From a virus: 64,000 bases of DNA. Both the position numbers and the translations under genes were made by a program. How positions within the stretch are numbered: position 1 is the first letter of the stretch; every line of letters begins with the position of its first letter. The notes beneath the pieces are model-generated. The model saw only the letters and a program-made list of their open reading frames with translations. It searched no databases and was not told the origin of the DNA. Where the stretch lies: positions 1 to 64,000 of IMG/VR virus record IMGVR_UViG_3300008267_000022; one strand, given 5' to 3'. Positions 18,148-32,291 of this stretch are shown here, in pieces.

Positions 18148-18173
18148 AAAAGAAACGGTTATGAAGCGTTTTG

Positions 18174-18245
18174 TAGTCAGGGTGGGATTCGAACCCACGG
18201 GTACCTATCACTTTTCGATTTATTAAATCTTATAGTAACCTGACC
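18174..18245 (-). ncRNA. tRNA-like RNA (acceptor and T arm, no canonical D or anticodon arm)
   Basis: GGTCAGG/CCTGACT-A; GTGGG-TTCGAAT-CCCAC. Confidence 0.65.
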
Positions 18246-18311
18246 TACCCCGAATTTTCTAGTAGCGGCACTTTTACGCGGCCGTCGGTTCTACTTGCGA
18301 CGATTTTTTGC

Positions 18312-26892: not shown

Positions 26893-27087
26893 TCACTCAT
26901 TCTCTTCATTTACTTTTAAATCTAATTCGGACTCGTAAAAATAAGGACAACACCATTTAGGGTTGTCACACTTGAGTTTTACCATTTTTCCACCATAACA
27001 TCCTACTTGAAGTACTGTTGCCATACCTGAAAATTTGGTTTTAATTCTTTCCCCTATTTTTAATTTATTAAATCTTTTCATAACCAT
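26893..27087 (-). CDS. small SH3-like hypothetical protein
   Basis: LKIGERIK...YESEL. Confidence 0.5.
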   Translation of the reverse strand: MVMKRFNKLKIGERIKTKFSGMATVLQVGCYGGKMVKLKCDNPKWCCPYFYESELDLKVNEENE

Positions 27088-27788
27088 TTTATTTCATTTG
27101 TATGTTTATCCCATTCAATATTTAGTGGTAAATTAGTATACACATATTGTTCATTTAAAACAGATGCGTTTATAAAATGAGTATGCCCATTAAAATAATA
27201 ACCAGCACTACCATGAATGTGTCCAAATACATGTATTTTGGGCTTAGATTGATCTACTCGAGCACGTAACATTTCACATCCAACTCGTATATTCTGTCCT
27301 CCGGGTATATCTAAATAACCATAAGGTGGCCCATGCGTAATTAATACATCTGTGTTATCAGGTATAGCATCCCATTTTGCTTTCATTTCCTCTCCATTTC
27401 GAGGTAAATTGAATGCCCAATTATAAAATTCAGGTTGCCAAGGGGAGCCATAAATGCGAATATTATCTTCAGGAAAATCTCCGTTATGTCCATCATAATA
27501 ATCAACCCAAGATTCATCTTGTAGATAATCTATTGTAGGGTAATTGGGTAATATATTTTCAACCCAATGTGGGATATTTTCAAATACACGGTCGTGGTTT
27601 CCAGCAATGAATATTTTGTCTGTGTAGTTGTCTATTTTATCAAACCATTCTAAAAAATCTATTGCTTCTTGAAAATCGTACCCTCCATTCATAAAGTCAC
27701 CAGCATGAATTAATATATCTCCGCCTGGTAAGTCTTTATTTAGTAGGTTATGTTTGCTATGGGTATCTGATATGAGTGTAATTTTCAT
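27078..27788 (-). CDS. metallophosphoesterase (MPPED/239FB-like)
   Basis: SDTH, HAGD, AGNHD, THGPP, FGHIH. Confidence 0.9.
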   Translation of the reverse strand: MKITLISDTHSKHNLLNKDLPGGDILIHAGDFMNGGYDFQEAIDFLEWFDKIDNYTDKIFIAGNHDRVFENIPHWVENILPNYPTIDYLQDESWVDYYDGHNGDFPEDNIRIYGSPWQPEFYNWAFNLPRNGEEMKAKWDAIPDNTDVLITHGPPYGYLDIPGGQNIRVGCEMLRARVDQSKPKIHVFGHIHGSAGYYFNGHTHFINASVLNEQYVYTNLPLNIEWDKHTNEIKWL

Positions 27789-27927
27789 TTTAAGCAAATA
27801 TTATGGCTATTGTTATTACGGTAACAAACCAAAGTGTTACAATAATAAAAGGAATATTTTTTTTAATCATGACCTTAATTTTCTTTAAATATAAAAAAGA
27901 AATTTCAACAGACCAAGTTTTTTTAAA

Positions 27928-28412
27928 AACGTAAGAGTTTTTGACGAGTTATTTAATATTATCCTTTTAAAATTTCCTTTTTCTCATTAACTTTCTTCAT
28001 ATCGAAGTAAGTGTCTATAAGTTTATCAATTCGAGAGTCTGTGTATCGTCTCCCTTCGCTTGATTCATGTCCAACTGCGCGGTGTAACTCATCAACAGCT
28101 TGATCAGTCTCCCTTCGTGTTGCGTCAATTTGATTCATTAAGGTTTTTTCAACCATTGTTGTGTCGCGACTTGTATTGTCAAATTGTTGCCAAATTTCGC
28201 GATTTGTATTCTCGAGTTCTCGTCTTAAATCACTTTCAATAGCAGCACAAAGCTGTTGAAGTAATTCTATTTTTCTTGTTAAAAAATTAATCTTAACTAA
28301 ACCTACAACAATAACAGTTAATATAATTACTGCTACAATCGTAAGCATACCTAAAATAAATGATGTTATTTCCATAATTTCTAATTTTTATATGTCAAAG
28401 AACTCTTACGTT
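27928..28412. repeat. ~19-bp inverted repeat pair (27928-27945 and 28394-28412) flanking one CDS
   Basis: aacgtaagagtttttgac vs gtcaaagaactcttacgtt. Confidence 0.75.
27959..28375 (-). CDS. N-terminally membrane-anchored coiled-coil protein
   Basis: TM helix then helical domain. Confidence 0.7.
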   Translation of the reverse strand: MEITSFILGMLTIVAVIILTVIVVGLVKINFLTRKIELLQQLCAAIESDLRRELENTNREIWQQFDNTSRDTTMVEKTLMNQIDATRRETDQAVDELHRAVGHESSEGRRYTDSRIDKLIDTYFDMKKVNEKKEILKG

Positions 28413-28423
28413 GTCCCCAAAAT

Positions 28424-28742
28424 AAAAAACCCCTAGTAGTTTTCCAAGCGTCCTTGGCACTTGCTAGGGGGTGATAATGGTTATATGGTTGAGTAAGTAT
28501 GTCTGGCCGGACAGGTATTACAGCAATCCAATTTCCCAATATCGAAAAGACCATCCAAGTGAGCAGATCTAACGGGATGCCCGATGGTACTGGGCCTATG
28601 GTTATCTCACCACAGGGGGGTATTCTTGAGCAACAGTATCACTCAAGGGTTCCAACATTCACATGTTGGTGGGGTAAAAGACCTACCCTGGTACGCTCGA
28701 TCGTGGTCACCACAGTCCAGAAGCGTGGTAGGTACTGTTTGC
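28424..28742 (-). ncRNA. candidate large multi-hairpin ncRNA (~310 nt) with terminator
   Basis: At least 7 stems, e.g. CCAACAT-GTGA-ATGTTGG, CTTGAG/CTCAAG, CCTGTGGT/ACCATAGG; ATATTTATA upstream; CCCCTAG/CTAGGGG-TTTTTT end. Confidence 0.65.
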
Positions 28743-28755
28743 TTTTATAAATATG

Positions 28756-28829
28756 TGGTCCCTCCTGGGTTCGAACCAGAGACCTACTGATTATGAGTCA
28801 GTTGCTCTAACCTGCTGAGCTAAGGGACC
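28756..28829 (-). tRNA. tRNA with CAT anticodon, Ile2(lysidine)-like
   Basis: GGTCCCT/AGGGACC-A; ACTGA-CTCATAA-TCAGT; TTCGAAC loop. Confidence 0.9.
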
Positions 28830-28833
28830 ATTA

Positions 28834-28931
28834 TAGGTGGCGAATAATTTGCGGTTATTCATTTCTACTTTTGAATATGCTGATTAAGTCAACTTCACAG
28901 CAGGAATTTCATTTTCGTCTAACTACCACCC
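28834..28931 (-). ncRNA. tRNA-like closed-stem RNA
   Basis: GGGTGGT/GCCACCT-A; GAATAA-CCGCAAA-TTATTC in T-arm position; TGCTG/CAGCA. Confidence 0.45.
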
Positions 28932-28946
28932 TTTGTAGTTTTTGTG

Positions 28947-29009
28947 TGGTCAAGGGGGGACTCGAACCCCCTGCTGAGTATAGTGCATTTACCCTTATGC
29001 AACATGACC
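28947..29009 (-). ncRNA. 63-nt tRNA-like RNA lacking an anticodon arm
   Basis: GGTCATG/CTTGACC-A; D arm GCAT/ATGC; 13-nt linker; GGGGG-TTCGAGT-CCCCC. Confidence 0.7.
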
Positions 29010-29013
29010 ATTG

Positions 29014-29081
29014 TAGTGGAGATTTGTAACCAACGCAGGATCACCCCTGTGCTTCGTTTCATTTGTCTTCGGCACTCCACT
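29014..29081 (-). ncRNA. tRNA-like closed-stem RNA
   Basis: AGTGGAG/CTCCACT-A; internal CAGG/CCTG. Confidence 0.45.
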
Positions 29082-29083
29082 GT

Positions 29084-29175
29084 TGCAAGTACTTCTTTTT
29101 TATCTTGCGCCACCATTCATGCACTATCCTATATGCTAATGGTTGTTACTGTACTATAGGATGTCAAGTAACTGC
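29084..29175 (-). ncRNA. closed-stem structured RNA
   Basis: GCAGTTACTT/AAGTACTTGC closing stem; ATCCTATA/TATAGGAT hairpin. Confidence 0.35.
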
Positions 29176-29177
29176 TG

Positions 29178-29250
29178 TTGCGGGGGCCAGACTCGAACTG
29201 ACGATCTCGGCTTATGAGACCGAGCGGATAACCATCTTCCACACCCCGCA
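29178..29250 (-). tRNA. tRNA-Met (CAT), initiator-like body
   Basis: TGCGGGG/CCCCGCA-A; TCGGT-CTCATAA-GCCGA. Confidence 0.88.
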
Positions 29251-29256
29251 ATATTG

Positions 29257-29407
29257 TAGCTCTAGTAGGAATCGAACCCACCTTGTAAATTACTTGTCAA
29301 ATGCCTCACCATTTTGCTCCGATACTAGTATTAAGGAGTCGTAAGCCAAATAACCATCATTCACCCACTCGCAGCTGCTAGGAGCGACCCACGCTTGCTA
29401 TAGAGCC
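29257..29407 (-). ncRNA. 151-nt tRNA-scaffold RNA with large insert
   Basis: GGCTCTA/TAGAGCT-A; GTGGG-TTCGATT-CCTAC; internal hairpins. Confidence 0.65.
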
Positions 29408-29472
29408 ATATTTAGATTTTTAAAACCCATCCCTCGTTTGGGGTAAGGAAACTCCACCTAATGTTTTTTGCG

Positions 29473-29616
29473 TAGTCAGGACAGGATTCGAACCTGCAAA
29501 CCTACCTGTTGCCTCGGTTTTAATTAGCTTGGGTCTTTAACAACACATACCCATAACTAAGTGTCTAATTCAAAAAATCGAAACATTTTGAATCTTACCA
29601 ATTCCACCACCTGACT
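29473..29616 (-). ncRNA. 144-nt tRNA-scaffold RNA with large insert
   Basis: AGTCAGG/CCTGACT-A; D-loop-like GTGGAATTGGTA; GCAGG-TTCGAAT-CCTGT. Confidence 0.7.
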
Positions 29617-29628
29617 AACCTTTAAAAA

Positions 29629-29826
29629 TTAATACTCAGGCTCTTTAAATAGCTTAACCAATCTAAAACTCCAGCTATCAGGAAAATCTGCTAGTCTAGA
29701 GGTTGTTGGTGCTAATTTAGTAGCCTCTCTCCTTGTTTTAGCCTCTACAAACCTGTAGGGGGCATGGTATCCATTTCGATGGACCCACTCCACTCTCCAA
29801 AGTGGATATTGCGCTTGCGCTTTCAT
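29629..29826 (-). CDS. hypothetical protein within RNA island
   Basis: ORF track. Confidence 0.55.
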   Translation of the reverse strand: MKAQAQYPLWRVEWVHRNGYHAPYRFVEAKTRREATKLAPTTSRLADFPDSWSFRLVKLFKEPEY

Positions 29827-29885
29827 ATTGATAAATCAATATGTCAGCCTGGAGATTTGTTTTTACACATTTGTTTTAATTTTAG

Positions 29886-29969
29886 TACTCGGGGAGGGAC
29901 TCGAACCCTCACAGCCATCTAGCCAACAGATCTTAAGTCTGTCGTGTCTACCAGTTCCACCACCCAAGC
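29886..29969 (-). tRNA. tRNA-Leu (TAA)
   Basis: GCTTGGG/CCCGAGT-A; ACAGA-CTTAAGA-TCTGT; long variable arm. Confidence 0.93.
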
Positions 29970-30166
29970 AACTGCAGGACCCGCTCCCTGCTCTGAGTTT
30001 GTACTTCACTCTATTAAGCGTTTGTAGGTTTAGTATTTTCTTTTTTTAGTAGTGGATTTTAGCCATTGGAACCATTCTTTAAATTGGTCTACTCTTTGTT
30101 TAGCGGTATTTTTACTCATTATTTTTTTTATTTTAATATACAAACTTTATTTTAATATACAAACTT

Positions 30167-31637: not shown

Positions 31638-32291
31638 TTATTTTTTTCTTGAGACTAAAGAGTAAGGGTCATCATCTACTTTTTTATCCCATAACCCTAC
31701 CTCTTCTAAATGCTTCTTTTGATAATCATCCAATTGAAAATCAATCATTTCAGTCGTTTTATAAACTGTTTGATGACCTTCTAATGACTCCATATCACGT
31801 TCAGTAAACACGTTTCCTAAACGTAAAAAATAACAGTTATAACAAGATAATTGACAATTACCATCTTGGTAATTATTTCGATGCCCATCTTTAAAAAACA
31901 TTATTAATGGGATTTTTCCATCTATTTCTCTTTTTTCACTAAAACCACACCAATAACACTCTTCAATCATGTAACCGGCCTCAATTAACTTAAATTTAAG
32001 CTTTTCAGGGGTAAATGAAGAAGTATCAGCTCTACCATTTACAACATCTTCAATTGCTGGTAGTTTTTTTCCAAATGGGGAATGACTCATAAATTTAGGT
32101 ATTCCTTTCCCACATTGGTTTTTATGTAAATCAAATAAAGACAAGCCTGTTTCCTCATCTTTATAAGCCTTCATAAATGGTTTTAGATGTTGGTAAGAGC
32201 AATTTAAGTAGCGAGCAGCTGCTTTAACCGAGCGAGTTTGTTTCATTGCTCGTAAGCAATCCTCTTTTGATATCGGTTTTGGTTTAGCCAT
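31638..32291 (-). CDS. HTH plus degenerate HNH zinc-finger protein
   Basis: SVKAAARYL HTH; CYWC...FFKDG..NN...CYNC. Confidence 0.65.
   Translation of the reverse strand: MAKPKPISKEDCLRAMKQTRSVKAAARYLNCSYQHLKPFMKAYKDEETGLSLFDLHKNQCGKGIPKFMSHSPFGKKLPAIEDVVNGRADTSSFTPEKLKFKLIEAGYMIEECYWCGFSEKREIDGKIPLIMFFKDGHRNNYQDGNCQLSCYNCYFLRLGNVFTERDMESLEGHQTVYKTTEMIDFQLDDYQKKHLEEVGLWDKKVDDDPYSLVSRKK

What the first reader, a model, noticed from the sequence alone, without database searches (positions are those of the whole stretch)
28756..29616. Tightly packed array of tRNA-scaffold RNAs, most of which cannot be decoding tRNAs
Seen: eight closed-stem RNAs are packed mostly 2-15 nt apart, and only two (both CAT) are canonical. 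The others keep an acceptor-type closing stem and a following A but vary the core: no anticodon arm (28947-29009), large multi-hairpin inserts (29257-29407, 29473-29616), or degenerate T arms (28834-28931, 29014-29081, 29084-29175). Inference: a polycistron that uses host tRNA processing (RNase P and 3' trimming) to release cargo RNAs, or decoys against tRNA-targeting defences. Intact stems with G-U pairs argue against simple decay.
Basis: partly seen in the sequence, partly recalled or inferred. Interest (0 to 1): 0.85.

Follow-up and report, generated by a model that had tools for sequence, protein, structure and literature searches.

The report
Phage array of tRNA-shaped cargo RNAs
A lake phage related to Flavobacterium phages carries, among three normal tRNA genes, a row of conserved small RNA genes that keep tRNA ends but cannot read codons; one belongs to a large, apparently undescribed phage family with a constant leucine-tRNA frame and exchangeable inserts, whose job is unknown.

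Summary
The observation largely holds. On the minus strand, 28756-29616 holds two canonical tRNA-Met(CAU) genes and six non-decoding structured RNAs, spaced 2-15 nt apart with one 65-nt gap.

- **Real tRNA shells (three):** 28947-29009 has no anticodon arm; 29257-29407 is 151 nt; 29473-29616 is 144 nt.
- **Closed-stem RNAs without a T loop (two):** 28834-28931 and 29014-29081.
- **Structured, but closing stem unsupported (one):** 29084-29175.

All six are conserved in related uncultured phages, with compensatory base-pair changes, so they are not decaying pseudogenes.

The 144-nt element belongs to a large family: 254 copies in the 203 loci I fetched. The family has an invariant acceptor stem and T arm, usually a tRNA-Leu D arm, and a hypervariable structured insert of about 20-110 nt. 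Family members carry the same flanks as the phages' true tRNAs (U at -1, A73 followed by C). Inserts and flanks are uncoupled between phages. About 30% of copies sit 13-18 nt upstream of an ORF start.

My best reading is that host tRNA-processing enzymes cut the polycistron at these shells. This would release stable cargo RNAs and the pieces between them, including a 65-aa micro-ORF mRNA. Processing was not shown and cargo function is unknown.

The closest known relatives are the T5 RNA1/RNA2/RNA3 and T4 RNAC/RNAD stable RNAs. This scan has already noted the same family in at least 11 other genomes.

The parts
29886..29969 (-). Canonical tRNA-Leu(UAA), the first unit of the RNA island (context).
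   Evidence: ARAGORN. Rfam tRNA model, 54.4 bits.
29629..29826 (-). A 65-aa micro-ORF lying between tRNA-Leu and the 144-nt shell. It is protein-coding, not a spacer RNA.
   Evidence: The ORF is intact in four phages. Variable columns fall 35 at third codon positions against 17 and 16 at the others, and there are no frame-breaking indels. It has no Pfam or PHROG family. Short metatranscriptome contigs in 4 of 4 runs cover it.
29473..29616 (-). A 144-nt member of the tRNA-Leu 'chassis' family. It has acceptor AGUCAGG/CCUGACU plus A73, a Leu-type D arm carrying a 29-nt hairpin inserted in the D loop, two cargo hairpins in place of the anticodon and variable arms, and T arm GCAGG-UUCGAAU-CCUGU.
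   Evidence: Rfam tRNA model, 28.9 bits. Family census. The constrained tRNA-like fold is within 1 kcal/mol of the MFE. Flanks are U at -1 and C at +1.
29408..29472 (-). A conserved 65-nt trailer that follows chassis elements in many phages. It holds a small covarying hairpin, a U run and an A/T-rich motif. It may be a terminator or attenuator plus a promoter.
   Evidence: BLAST conservation of 29500-29408 in L006, L034, L052, L007, L008, L009, L005, L067 and L014. Aligned trailers. Its function was not tested.
29257..29407 (-). A 151-nt tRNA-like RNA. It has acceptor GGCUCUA/UAGAGCU plus A, a canonical T arm, and a multi-helix interior of about 115 nt with no anticodon arm.
   Evidence: Strict closure scan. 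Homologues in L060, L139 and L035, with 8 of 39 predicted pairs showing compensatory changes. A 241-nt metatranscriptome contig covers 29163-29403 with one mismatch.
29178..29250 (-). Canonical tRNA-Met(CAU), second copy.
   Evidence: ARAGORN. Rfam, 46.4 bits.
29084..29175 (-). A 92-nt structured RNA with two covarying hairpins whose loops are complementary (a possible kissing-loop pair). It is not a tRNA scaffold and the proposed closing stem is unsupported. It lies 2 nt from a tRNA on one side and 2 nt from the next closed-stem unit on the other.
   Evidence: Alignment A1 and RNAalifold pair counts: AU<->GC at columns 42/75 and 45/72, GC<->AU at 48/68, AU<->CG at 52/65. The MFE fold lacks the closing stem.
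29014..29081 (-). A 68-nt closed-stem RNA (AGUGGAG/CUCCACU plus A) with no T-loop consensus.
   Evidence: The closing stem is kept in 6 of 6 phages, and pair 1-72 covaries, AU in three and GC in three. There is no tRNA-model hit.
28947..29009 (-). A 63-nt 'armless' tRNA-like RNA. It has an acceptor stem, D arm and T arm, with a 12-nt linker where the anticodon arm and variable region would be.
   Evidence: Rfam tRNA model, 35.9 bits. In five homologues, 8 of 14 predicted pairs show compensatory double changes, in the acceptor, D and T stems.
28834..28931 (-). A 98-nt closed-stem RNA with a 6-bp hairpin at its 3' side (loop CCGCAAA, not a T loop). It is bracketed by the armless shell and tRNA-Met.
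   Evidence: Homologues in L054 and L198, about 90% identical, with two compensatory pairs. MFE z-score is -2.5.
28756..28829 (-). Canonical tRNA-Met(CAU), first copy.
   Evidence: ARAGORN. Rfam, 69.9 bits.
28400..28750 (-). A structured ncRNA of about 310 nt followed by an intrinsic terminator (CCCCUAG...CUAGGGG plus a U run). This is the last unit of the island and is context only; it is a separate first-reader finding.
   Evidence: It is conserved in about 20 loci. The alignment shows covarying helices, indels that are not multiples of three, and no conserved ORF. Metatranscriptome contigs cover 28450-28703.
18174..18245 (-). A second chassis-family member (72 nt; GGUCAGG...GUGGG-UUCGAAU-CCCAC-CCUGACU-A). 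It sits after a gene's stop codon and before a terminator.
   Evidence: At the syntenic site L035 has a different insert between similar flanks; L007 and L054 share the downstream trailer with yet other inserts.

Best explanation
The stretch is the core of a polycistronic RNA-gene island of about 1.6 kb (about 28400-29970, minus strand). It lies in an uncultured myovirus related to Flavobacterium phage Immutovirus.

**What the island holds.** Besides three decoding tRNAs it encodes non-decoding RNAs. Three of them are tRNA 'shells': they keep the acceptor stem, the T arm and (in two of three) a D arm. Together these parts form the upper body and elbow of a tRNA.

**Inferred mechanism.**
- Host RNase P cuts at the 5' end of each shell.
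- A 3' endonuclease of the RNase Z type cuts after the discriminator A.
- CCA is then added, exactly as for the neighbouring tRNAs.
- These cuts yield stable small RNAs that carry a non-tRNA 'cargo'.
- The same cuts free the units lying between shells: the 92-nt and 98-nt structured RNAs, the micro-ORF mRNA and the 310-nt ncRNA.

**The chassis family.** The 144-nt shell belongs to a very large phage family with a constant tRNA-Leu-derived chassis and a structured, exchangeable insert. The cargo is the selected and mobile part. What it acts on is unknown.

**Shown versus inferred.** Shown: the anatomy, conservation, covariation, tRNA-type flanks, family size and the uncoupling of insert from flanks. 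Inferred: processing, stability, CCA addition or charging, and any trans-acting role.
For: **Anatomy and tRNA likeness.**

**Selection on structure.**
- The armless shell has 8 of 14 predicted pairs with compensatory changes.
- The 151-nt shell has 8 of 39.
- The 29180-28939 block has 8 of 48.
- The 98-nt RNA has 2.

**Family of the 144-nt shell.**
- There are 254 copies (234 unique) in 203 loci, 54-259 nt long.
- All copies lie on the gene strand.

**Flanks.**
- U at -1 in 175 of 209 copies.
- C after the discriminator in 205 of 209, but CCA in only 5 of 209.
- The canonical tRNAs of the same loci show the same signature.
- In the window, the three shells and the three tRNAs all read U(-1) and A73-C.

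**Cargo.**
- The 234 unique elements fall into 199 cargo clusters.
- Cargo GC is 41% against 31% for the genome. Mean MFE z-score is -0.79 and 80% of z-scores are below 0.
- Cargo subfamilies show compensatory changes.

**Exchange between phages.**
- 18 element pairs share both flanks but not the cargo.
- 37 pairs share the cargo but neither flank.
- Only 3 pairs share all three.

**Transcription.** Short contigs from four riverine metatranscriptome runs match 29163-29403, 29596-29885 and 28450-28703.

**Precedent.** T5 annotates RNA1, RNA2 and RNA3 as 'tRNA-like stable RNA' inside its tRNA cluster. T5 RNA1 has a Leu-type D arm plus an insert.
Against: - No RNA ends, CCA tails or discrete RNA species were observed. 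Contigs cannot show ends, and the libraries may contain DNA.
- Three of the eight units are not tRNA-like, so the 'scaffold' logic applies to them only through their neighbours.
- The near-invariance of the chassis sequence is stronger than RNA structure alone requires. It points to an added constraint, either a specific protein partner or DNA-level recombination.
- My covariation count on the chassis is circular, because members were selected for pairing.
- No target was found for any cargo.
- About 30% of family members sit 13-18 nt upstream of an ORF start. That fits a processing-signal role in which the cargo matters less.
Confidence: 0.6

Rival explanations
1. The shells are mainly transcript punctuation. 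They serve as RNase P/Z cleavage signals that cut polycistronic phage transcripts and give downstream mRNAs a short A-rich leader, as tRNAs do in mitochondria and t-elements do in plant mitochondria. On this view the insert only has to fold harmlessly.
For: - 62 of 209 family members (30%) have an ATG-initiated ORF starting within 30 nt downstream, with a sharp mode at 13-18 nt. The figure for canonical tRNAs is 13%.
- 25 members sit between a stop codon and a start codon.
- In the window, the micro-ORF is bracketed by tRNA-Leu and the 144-nt shell.
- The 18174-18245 element lies between a stop codon and a terminator.
- U at -1 and C at +1 are conserved.
Against: - Identical cargo recurs in unrelated flanks: 37 pairs.
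- Cargo helices covary.
- Cargo is GC-enriched and folds better than its shuffles.
- About 70% of members are not next to an ORF.
- In the window's array the shells mostly abut other RNAs.
- A plain tRNA would serve as punctuation equally well.
Confidence: 0.17
2. The shells are tRNA-Leu mimics that are charged or bound by host factors. They could act as a sponge or decoy for LeuRS, for defence toxins that target the acceptor end, or for other proteins that read the tRNA elbow.
For: - The chassis keeps the E. coli LeuRS identity set.
  - A73 is present in 98% of members and U8 in 95%.
  - A Leu-type D arm with A14, A15 and G18G19 is present in 48%.
  - A U precedes the T stem in 81%.
  - The T loop reads UUCGAAU in 83%.
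- LeuRS ignores the anticodon and the variable arm.
- LeuRS still charges tRNA-Leu variants lacking both arms (PMC9976931, citing Larkin et al. 2002).
- The invariant acceptor sequence suggests a sequence-specific partner.
- Phage tRNA loci are linked to anti-defence (abstracts of PMC13096335 and PMC12803027).
Against: - About half the members lack a Leu-type D arm.
- Without an anticodon loop they cannot decoy anticodon nucleases.
- A decoy does not need about 200 different inserts.
- The Leu features may simply reflect descent from a tRNA-Leu gene.
- No charging data exist.
Confidence: 0.12
3. The constant 25-26-nt ends act mainly at the DNA level, as homology blocks for recombination that shuffles neighbouring cassettes between phages. 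The RNA would then be incidental.
For: - The ends are invariant across phages that share nothing else.
- Module conservation across the island is mosaic.
- Flanks and inserts are uncoupled.
- An RNA contig from a relative joins a chassis 3' end directly to the micro-ORF module.
- An HNH endonuclease-like gene lies nearby at 31638-32291, as in the T5 tRNA region.
Against: - All copies are on the transcribed strand.
- They carry tRNA-type flanks.
- T-stem variants keep their pairing.
- The D arm and T loop keep tRNA tertiary-contact nucleotides that DNA homology does not need.
Confidence: 0.08
4. The elements are decaying tRNA pseudogenes in a lineage that is losing tRNAs. Related phages carry up to 22 tRNAs at this locus.
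For: - Relatives have much larger canonical arrays upstream of the same phosphoesterase gene.
- The shells look like tRNAs with deletions or insertions.
Against: - Compensatory changes maintain the non-canonical folds across diverged phages.
- The armless form is kept with an entirely different acceptor sequence in L005 and L006.
- The family has hundreds of copies with invariant ends and structured inserts.
- All copies are on the gene strand.
Confidence: 0.03

Closest known systems
Phage T5 RNA1, RNA2 and RNA3, annotated in GenBank AY543070 as 'tRNA-like stable RNA with unknown functions'. T5 RNAI, RNAIII, RNAIV and RNA2H are annotated there as 'stable RNA with unknown functions'.
   Same: - They lie inside a phage tRNA cluster, interleaved with tRNAs, small ORFs and HNH endonuclease genes.
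- RNA1 (144 nt) has an acceptor-like closure, a Leu-type D arm (GCCGGAAUUGGUAGACGG), a T arm and an insert of about 85 nt. It scores 24 bits on the tRNA model.
- RNA2 has the T arm GCAGG-UUCGAAU-CCUGU, identical to the family's.
- Their function is likewise unknown.
   Different: - There is no detectable sequence homology: blastn of the 144-nt element against 50,697 phage records found nothing.
- The acceptor sequences differ.
- T5 has single copies, not a multi-copy family with one constant chassis and exchangeable inserts.
- The hosts differ (Enterobacteria against probable Bacteroidota).
Phage T4 RNAC and RNAD (species 1 and 2 RNAs)
   Same: They are small RNAs transcribed from the phage tRNA region, and their roles are unknown (PMC3014915).
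   Different: I did not compare sequences or structures here. No family of exchangeable inserts is described for them.
Engineered tRNA scaffold for recombinant RNA (Ponchon and Dardel approach; PMC3753655), and tRNA-flanked polycistrons used in biotechnology
   Same: The anticodon region of a tRNA is replaced by a cargo RNA, so that cellular tRNA processing and the tRNA fold give a discrete, stable product. The window's shells have that design. Units between shells would be released in the same way.
   Different: The engineered system is artificial. The natural elements also carry inserts in the D loop (the 29-nt hairpin in 29473-29616), and about half lack a D arm. Processing here is inferred, not shown.
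tmRNA (SsrA)
   Same: The 5' and 3' ends form a tRNA-like acceptor and T-arm domain around a large non-tRNA interior. tmRNA is processed by RNase P and is aminoacylated (PMC3985003 abstract).
   Different: ARAGORN finds no tmRNA. There is no G3-U70 alanine identity; the acceptor has U3-A70. I identified no tag reading frame or pseudoknot ring. The elements are far shorter, and there are many per genome.
Mitochondrial tRNA punctuation and plant mitochondrial t-elements (PMC1920247)
   Same: tRNA or tRNA-like structures at transcript boundaries define mRNA ends through RNase P/Z cleavage. This fits the 13-18-nt spacing to downstream start codons and the bracketing of the micro-ORF.
   Different: Those elements are organellar. 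They have no constant chassis with exchangeable, structured, conserved inserts.
Canonical class II tRNA-Leu (Rfam RF00005)
   Same: The acceptor, D and T architecture is shared, as are discriminator A73 and a D arm identical to that of E. coli tRNA-Leu in 20% of members.
   Different: There is no anticodon arm and the anticodon calls are incoherent. Only 32 of 234 elements are called as full-length tRNAs by ARAGORN, spread over 22 different 'anticodons'.

Membership tests
Canonical decoding tRNA (RF00005) | A cloverleaf with a 5-bp anticodon stem and a 7-nt loop carrying U33 and a purine at position 37. | tested here: not met
   ARAGORN calls none of the six non-canonical units. Rfam aligns 28947-29009 and 29473-29616 only by skipping the anticodon arm. 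The other four get no hit at E<=10.
Canonical decoding tRNA (RF00005) | A 7-bp acceptor stem, a T arm with the UUCRANY loop, and a discriminator base. | tested here: met
   Met for 28947-29009 (one U-U mismatch in the acceptor stem), 29257-29407 and 29473-29616. Not met for 28834-28931, 29014-29081 and 29084-29175.
tRNA-Leu chassis family (AGUCAGG ... ACAGGUUCGAAUCCUGUCCUGACUA) | Constant acceptor stem and T arm sequence, with discriminator A. | tested here: met
   29473-29616 matches the 22-mer exactly. 18174-18245 has the same acceptor 3' strand with a covarying T stem. The other window units do not belong.
tRNA-Leu chassis family (AGUCAGG ... ACAGGUUCGAAUCCUGUCCUGACUA) | A Leu-type D arm (UGGCGGAAUUGGUAGACGC). 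| tested here: met
   29473-29616 reads UGGUGGAAUUGGUA[29-nt hairpin]AGACAC. 18174-18245 has no D arm, like about half of the family.
tRNA-Leu chassis family (AGUCAGG ... ACAGGUUCGAAUCCUGUCCUGACUA) | A non-tRNA insert unrelated to the inserts of other members. | tested here: met
   The window's cargo is a singleton among 199 cargo clusters.
Phage 'tRNA-like stable RNA' (T5 RNA1/2/3 type) | Encoded inside a phage tRNA gene cluster and tRNA-like at its ends. | tested here: met
Phage 'tRNA-like stable RNA' (T5 RNA1/2/3 type) | Accumulates as a discrete stable RNA in infected cells. | not testable with these tools
   Only metatranscriptome contigs are available. They cannot show ends or abundance.
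Phage 'tRNA-like stable RNA' (T5 RNA1/2/3 type) | Sequence homology to T5 RNA1 or RNA2. | tested here: not met
   There is no blastn match to any of 50,697 phage records. Only the short T-arm string is shared with RNA2.
tmRNA | G3-U70, a tag reading frame and pseudoknots. | tested here: not met
   ARAGORN's tmRNA search is negative. There is no Rfam tmRNA hit. The acceptor has U3-A70.
tRNA gene interrupted by a group I intron | An intron of 200 nt or more with the group I core, inserted in an otherwise complete anticodon loop. | tested here: not met
   There is no group I hit at E<=10. The inserts are 20-110 nt. No anticodon-stem halves flank them.

The most novel reading that the evidence does not exclude
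Phages of freshwater Bacteroidota run a natural 'plug-and-play' small-RNA system.
- One constant tRNA-Leu chassis is matured by RNase P, RNase Z and the CCA-adding enzyme, and may be leucylated, since it keeps the full LeuRS identity set.
- The chassis presents hundreds of different structured cargo RNAs.
- These cargo RNAs are exchanged between phages at the constant ends.
- The cargo pool would be an arms-race repertoire, an RNA counterpart of anti-defence gene cassettes.
- The same elements also punctuate phage mRNAs.
- If so, the stable RNAs of T4 and T5, unexplained for about 50 years, would be isolated members of this strategy.
Probability: 0.25. Interest if true: 0.9.

Novelty: new variant of a known kind. 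Interest (0 to 1): 0.72.

Why it matters
Non-decoding tRNA-like stable RNAs have been known in the tRNA clusters of T4 and T5 for decades without a function.

Here the same kind of element appears as a large comparative data set. There are hundreds of copies, a constant chassis, covarying cargo subfamilies, defined flanks and a clear pattern of exchange. That makes the old question approachable by covariation analysis, by in vitro processing and charging assays, and by genetics in T5 or in Flavobacterium phages.

If the shells are matured as inferred, they are a natural precedent for the tRNA-scaffold and tRNA-flanked polycistron designs used in RNA biotechnology. They would also extend tRNA punctuation of mRNAs to phages.

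There is a practical point as well. Gene callers either miss these elements or mislabel them as odd tRNAs, for example 'tRNA-Ile(AAT)' at 18173-18255. The 86-nt 'tRNA-Cys' annotated in Immutovirus may be another case.

Tried and rejected
**Known RNA families.** Rfam at gathering and at permissive thresholds gave only tRNA-model hits on the window, and no group I intron, tmRNA, Y RNA or skipping-rope hit. On eight element-rich loci the only additional hit was one near-threshold freshwater-1 match at L098:4124-4186.

**Cultured phages.** The 144-nt element has no blastn match in 50,697 phage records. The closest cultured relative, Immutovirus, lacks the chassis motif in its whole genome.

**Host tRNA origin or att site.** The exact 24-mer occurs in only 18 contigs among 185,579 species genomes. 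All are MAG contigs, many labelled Bacteroidota, and none is a canonical tRNA.

**Antisense or guide role.**
- Cargo matched no other sequence in 2.1 Mb of related loci or in the 83.7-kb contig, apart from other family members and boundary artefacts.
- Cargo is not complementary to the downstream leader or start region: mean duplex z-score is -0.11.

**Coding explanation.** The 264-nt 'spacer' at 29621-29884 turned out to be a real 65-aa gene. The 310-nt region and the 29180-28939 block show no conserved frame.

**Phage-encoded RNA enzymes.** No RNA ligase (PF09414), CCA-adding enzyme (PF01743) or RtcB (PF01139) was found in the contig, which is only about 52% complete.

**Chassis covariation count.** This is formally perfect but circular, because members were selected for pairing. 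I do not use it as evidence.

**Metatranscriptome coverage.** No contig covered the insert of 29473-29616, nor 28834-28931, nor 29014-29162. Absence from contigs says nothing.

**Literature.** Four full-text searches found no description of this family.
Full report
**Setting.** The window is the first 64 kb of an 83.7-kb IMG/VR viral contig. The contig is about 52% complete and about 31% GC, with genes mostly on the minus strand. A 2-kb stretch around 28-30 kb stands out at 42% GC. The gene just downstream (27078-27797, minus strand) is a calcineurin-like metallophosphoesterase. Its closest cultured relatives are Flavobacterium phages of the genus Immutovirus, at 55% amino-acid identity. The same gene retrieved 373 related IMG/VR stretches. 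I kept 80 of them (L004-L083), and many carry tRNA arrays of up to 22 tRNAs upstream of it.

**Checking the observation.** ARAGORN and Rfam agree on two tRNA-Met(CAU) genes inside the stretch. They also find a tRNA-Leu(UAA) just upstream at 29886-29969.

Three further units are genuine tRNA shells.
- 28947-29009 scores 35.9 bits on the tRNA model, with the anticodon arm skipped.
- 29473-29616 scores 28.9 bits, with large inserts.

With the acceptor stem and T arm enforced, their folds lie within about 1 kcal/mol of the unconstrained minimum.

The other three units (28834-28931, 29014-29081, 29084-29175) have no T-loop consensus and no tRNA-model hit. Calling them tRNA scaffolds is not justified.

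**Are the units selected RNAs or decaying tRNAs?** BLAST of the island against the related loci shows a mosaic. Each unit is conserved in a different subset of phages. Comparative folding gives compensatory changes throughout.
- **Armless shell, 28947-29009.** 8 of 14 predicted pairs have double changes. The acceptor is GGUC.../...GACC in three phages and AACC.../...GGUU in two others. D-stem and T-stem pairs also switch.
- **151-nt shell.** 8 of 39 predicted pairs, including a fully switched internal helix.
- **Block 29180-28939.** 8 of 48 predicted pairs. The closing stem of 29014-29081 switches between A1-U72 and G1-C72. The internal hairpins of 29084-29175 covary.
- **Kissing loops in 29084-29175.** The loops of those two hairpins are complementary, and the complementarity is maintained through changes (CCUAUA/UAUAGG against UCCGA/UCGGA, read).
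- **Closing stem of 29084-29175.** It is not supported. L005 and L006 carry uncompensated changes, and the MFE fold does not form it.
- **98-nt RNA.** It has two compensatory pairs among three sequences.

Simple decay is therefore excluded for practical purposes.

**The 144-nt element belongs to a very large family.** Its last 22-25 nt (GGUUCGAAUCCUGUCCUGACUA) recur, always on the gene strand.
- The first 80 loci held 50 copies.
- Across 203 loci I collected 254 elements, 234 of them unique, running continuously from 54 to 259 nt.

The members share these features.
- 5' strand AGUCAGG.
- U8 in 95%.
- A Leu-type D arm in 48%; in 20% it is letter-for-letter the E. coli tRNA-Leu D arm.
- A U before the T stem in 81%.
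- T loop UUCGAAU in 83%.
- Discriminator A in 98%.

Between these constant parts lies an insert with no family-wide similarity. The 234 elements fall into 199 cargo clusters, 175 of them singletons.

ARAGORN accepts only 32 of 234 as full-length tRNAs, with 22 different 'anticodons'. Two of these look like real tRNAs built on the same chassis, Lys-UUU and Ile-UAU.

In the set retrieved independently of the motif (80 loci plus the contig), there are 146 closed T-arm elements. Of these, 100 are canonical tRNAs and 46 are not. All 46 lie on the gene strand, and 34 are of this type.

The window holds a second member at 18174-18245, which ARAGORN mislabels tRNA-Ile(AAT).

The motif is absent from 50,697 cultured-phage records and from Immutovirus. 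Among 185,579 species genomes it occurs only in 18 MAG contigs, and never as a canonical tRNA.

**Signals for processing.**
- Family members have U at -1 in 175 of 209 cases.
- C follows the discriminator in 205 of 209, but an encoded CCA is present in only 5.
- The canonical tRNAs of the same loci show the same signature: U at -1 in 73%, and C after the discriminator in 95% once ARAGORN's one-base end offset is allowed for.
- In the window, the three shells and all three tRNAs read U(-1) and A73-C.
- The 92-nt and 98-nt RNAs do not carry these flanks, and 29014-29081 has only the C after its discriminator. All three lie 2-15 nt from the ends of tRNA or tRNA-like neighbours, so cleavage at those neighbours would release them.
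- I found no phage-encoded CCA-adding enzyme, RNA ligase or RtcB in the half-genome available. Host enzymes are therefore implied.

**Is the cargo junk?**
- Cargo is 41% GC in a 31% GC genome.
- Cargo folds better than its shuffles: mean z-score -0.79, 80% below zero, t-test p of about 2e-18.
- Cargo subfamilies found in several phages show compensatory changes.
  - GUGA...UCAC switches to GAGA...UCUC, and GGUCCA...UGGACG to GGCCCA...UGGGCG.
  - In a GCGUAAUG...AAGGUUGC group, the closing helix switches among AUUGC/GCAAU, AUGC/GCAU, AUAC/GUAU and GAGC/GCUC.
- Cargo and context are uncoupled. Among element pairs with any similarity, 18 share both 150-nt flanks but not the cargo. Another 37 share the cargo but neither flank. 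Only 3 share all three.
- The site of the window's 18174-18245 element is one such case. L035 has a different insert between similar flanks. L007 and L054 share the downstream trailer with yet other inserts.

So the insert, or the whole element, is an exchangeable unit that is conserved where it recurs.

I found no target for any cargo. There were no antisense matches in 2.1 Mb of related sequence and no pairing with the downstream leader. There was no Rfam family for any cargo either.

**A link to protein genes.**
- 62 of 209 members (30%) are followed within 30 nt by an ATG-initiated ORF, with a sharp mode at 13-18 nt. The figure for canonical tRNAs is 13%.
- Many members directly follow a stop codon.
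- In the window, the 264 nt between tRNA-Leu and the 144-nt shell is not spacer RNA. It is a conserved 65-aa gene: intact in four phages, with third-position-biased substitutions of 35 against 17 and 16.
- That mRNA is therefore bracketed by a tRNA and a shell.
- This supports a punctuation role alongside the cargo role.

**Expression.** Contigs from four riverine metatranscriptome runs match three parts of the island.
- 29163-29403, covering tRNA-Met plus the 151-nt shell, with one mismatch.
- 29596-29885, covering the micro-ORF, in all four runs.
- 28450-28703, within the 310-nt ncRNA.

One relative's contig joins a chassis 3' end directly to the micro-ORF module, which illustrates the mosaicism. 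Contigs cannot show ends, and DNA carry-over is possible, so this is weak support for transcription only.

**Comparison with what is known.**
- Earlier notes of this scan pointed to phage T5, so I checked the record. AY543070 annotates RNA1 (144 nt), RNA2 (125 nt) and RNA3 (73 nt) as tRNA-like stable RNAs of unknown function. It also annotates four other stable RNAs, among tRNAs, small ORFs and HNH genes.
- T5 RNA1 has a Leu-type D arm, a T arm and an insert of about 85 nt, and scores 24 bits on the tRNA model.
- T5 RNA2 has the same T-arm string as the family.
- T4 RNAC and RNAD are likewise unexplained (PMC3014915).
- There is no sequence homology to T5. The multi-copy constant-chassis and exchangeable-insert organisation is not described in the papers I could search.
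- LeuRS needs A73, A15-U48, G18G19 and the D/T-loop contacts. It does not need the anticodon or the variable arm, and it charges tRNA-Leu variants lacking both (PMC9976931). The chassis keeps exactly these features, so leucylation is plausible but untested.
- The engineered tRNA scaffold (PMC3753655) is the closest functional analogue.

**Verdict.** The array is real and is under selection as RNA. Three units are tRNA shells and three are other structured RNAs. The stretch belongs to a larger RNA operon that also holds a micro-ORF and a 310-nt ncRNA ending at a terminator.

The most likely mechanism is maturation by the tRNA-processing machinery. This would release stable cargo RNAs and also cut the polycistron (confidence 0.6). 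What the cargo does is unknown.

The same family has already been noted by this scan in at least 11 other genomes. My results agree with those notes. I add the flank signature, the ORF spacing, the micro-ORF, the metatranscriptome matches, and the finding that half of this window's units are of other types.

Noticed in passing
window 29629-29826 (-): A conserved 65-aa protein gene (MKAQAQYPLWRVEW...) sits inside the RNA island between tRNA-Leu and the 144-nt shell. It has no Pfam or PHROG family. The ORF is intact in four phages with third-position-biased changes.
   Followed up: partly
window 28400-28750 (-): A structured ncRNA of about 310 nt with many covarying helices, ending in an intrinsic terminator. 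It is conserved in about 20 related loci, L006 carries a 60-nt insertion, and no ORF is conserved. There is no Rfam match.
   Followed up: partly
window 29408-29472 (-): A 65-nt trailer (CGCAAAAAACAUU..GGAGUUUCCUUACC-hairpin-GGGUUUUA) follows chassis elements in at least nine phages. It may be a terminator or attenuator plus a promoter.
   Followed up: no
loci such as L084, L103, L136, L139, L171, L207 (upstream of chassis elements): A recurrent small hairpin, UGACAGCUCGGAAAGACGAGCAA, with a covarying stem (GCUCG/CGAGC, GCUUG/CAAGC, GCUG/CAGC), lies directly 5' of many chassis elements. It is probably the end of another ncRNA module (CUGACACGCACGGCA...GUGCGUAGGUAAG...).
   Followed up: no
L098:4124-4186: A match to the Rfam freshwater-1 RNA (RF02979), at 70.1 bits against a gathering score of 72, lies inside a related phage's tRNA and shell island. 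That motif has no known function.
   Followed up: no
L222:3394-3479 (Flavobacterium phage vB_FspM_immuto_2-6A, NC_055915.1 20246-20331): The annotated 86-nt 'tRNA-Cys' of this cultured phage has acceptor GAAUCGG/CCGAUUC and a good T arm. By eye I see no canonical D or anticodon arm, and I ran no tRNA model on it. In L133 and L199 a chassis element precedes the same downstream gene (MEQILAFVLG...). It offers a culturable entry point for experiments.
   Followed up: partly
L122 (element 71 nt) and L149 (element 73 nt): Two chassis members carry canonical-looking anticodon arms (loops CUUUUAA for Lys-UUU and CUUAUAC for Ile-UAU). The same acceptor and T-arm chassis can therefore also host apparently decoding tRNAs.
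   Followed up: no
window 31638-32291 (-): An HNH endonuclease-like gene (PHROG 14736, E 8.7e-06) lies about 1.7 kb upstream of the RNA island. This echoes the HNH genes inside the T5 tRNA region.
   Followed up: no
window 29473-29616 (-), also L195, L175, L127, L144: Some chassis members carry a second insertion point: a hairpin inside the D loop, between G18G19-U-A and the 3' strand of the D stem. So the elbow region tolerates an insert as well as the anticodon region.
   Followed up: no
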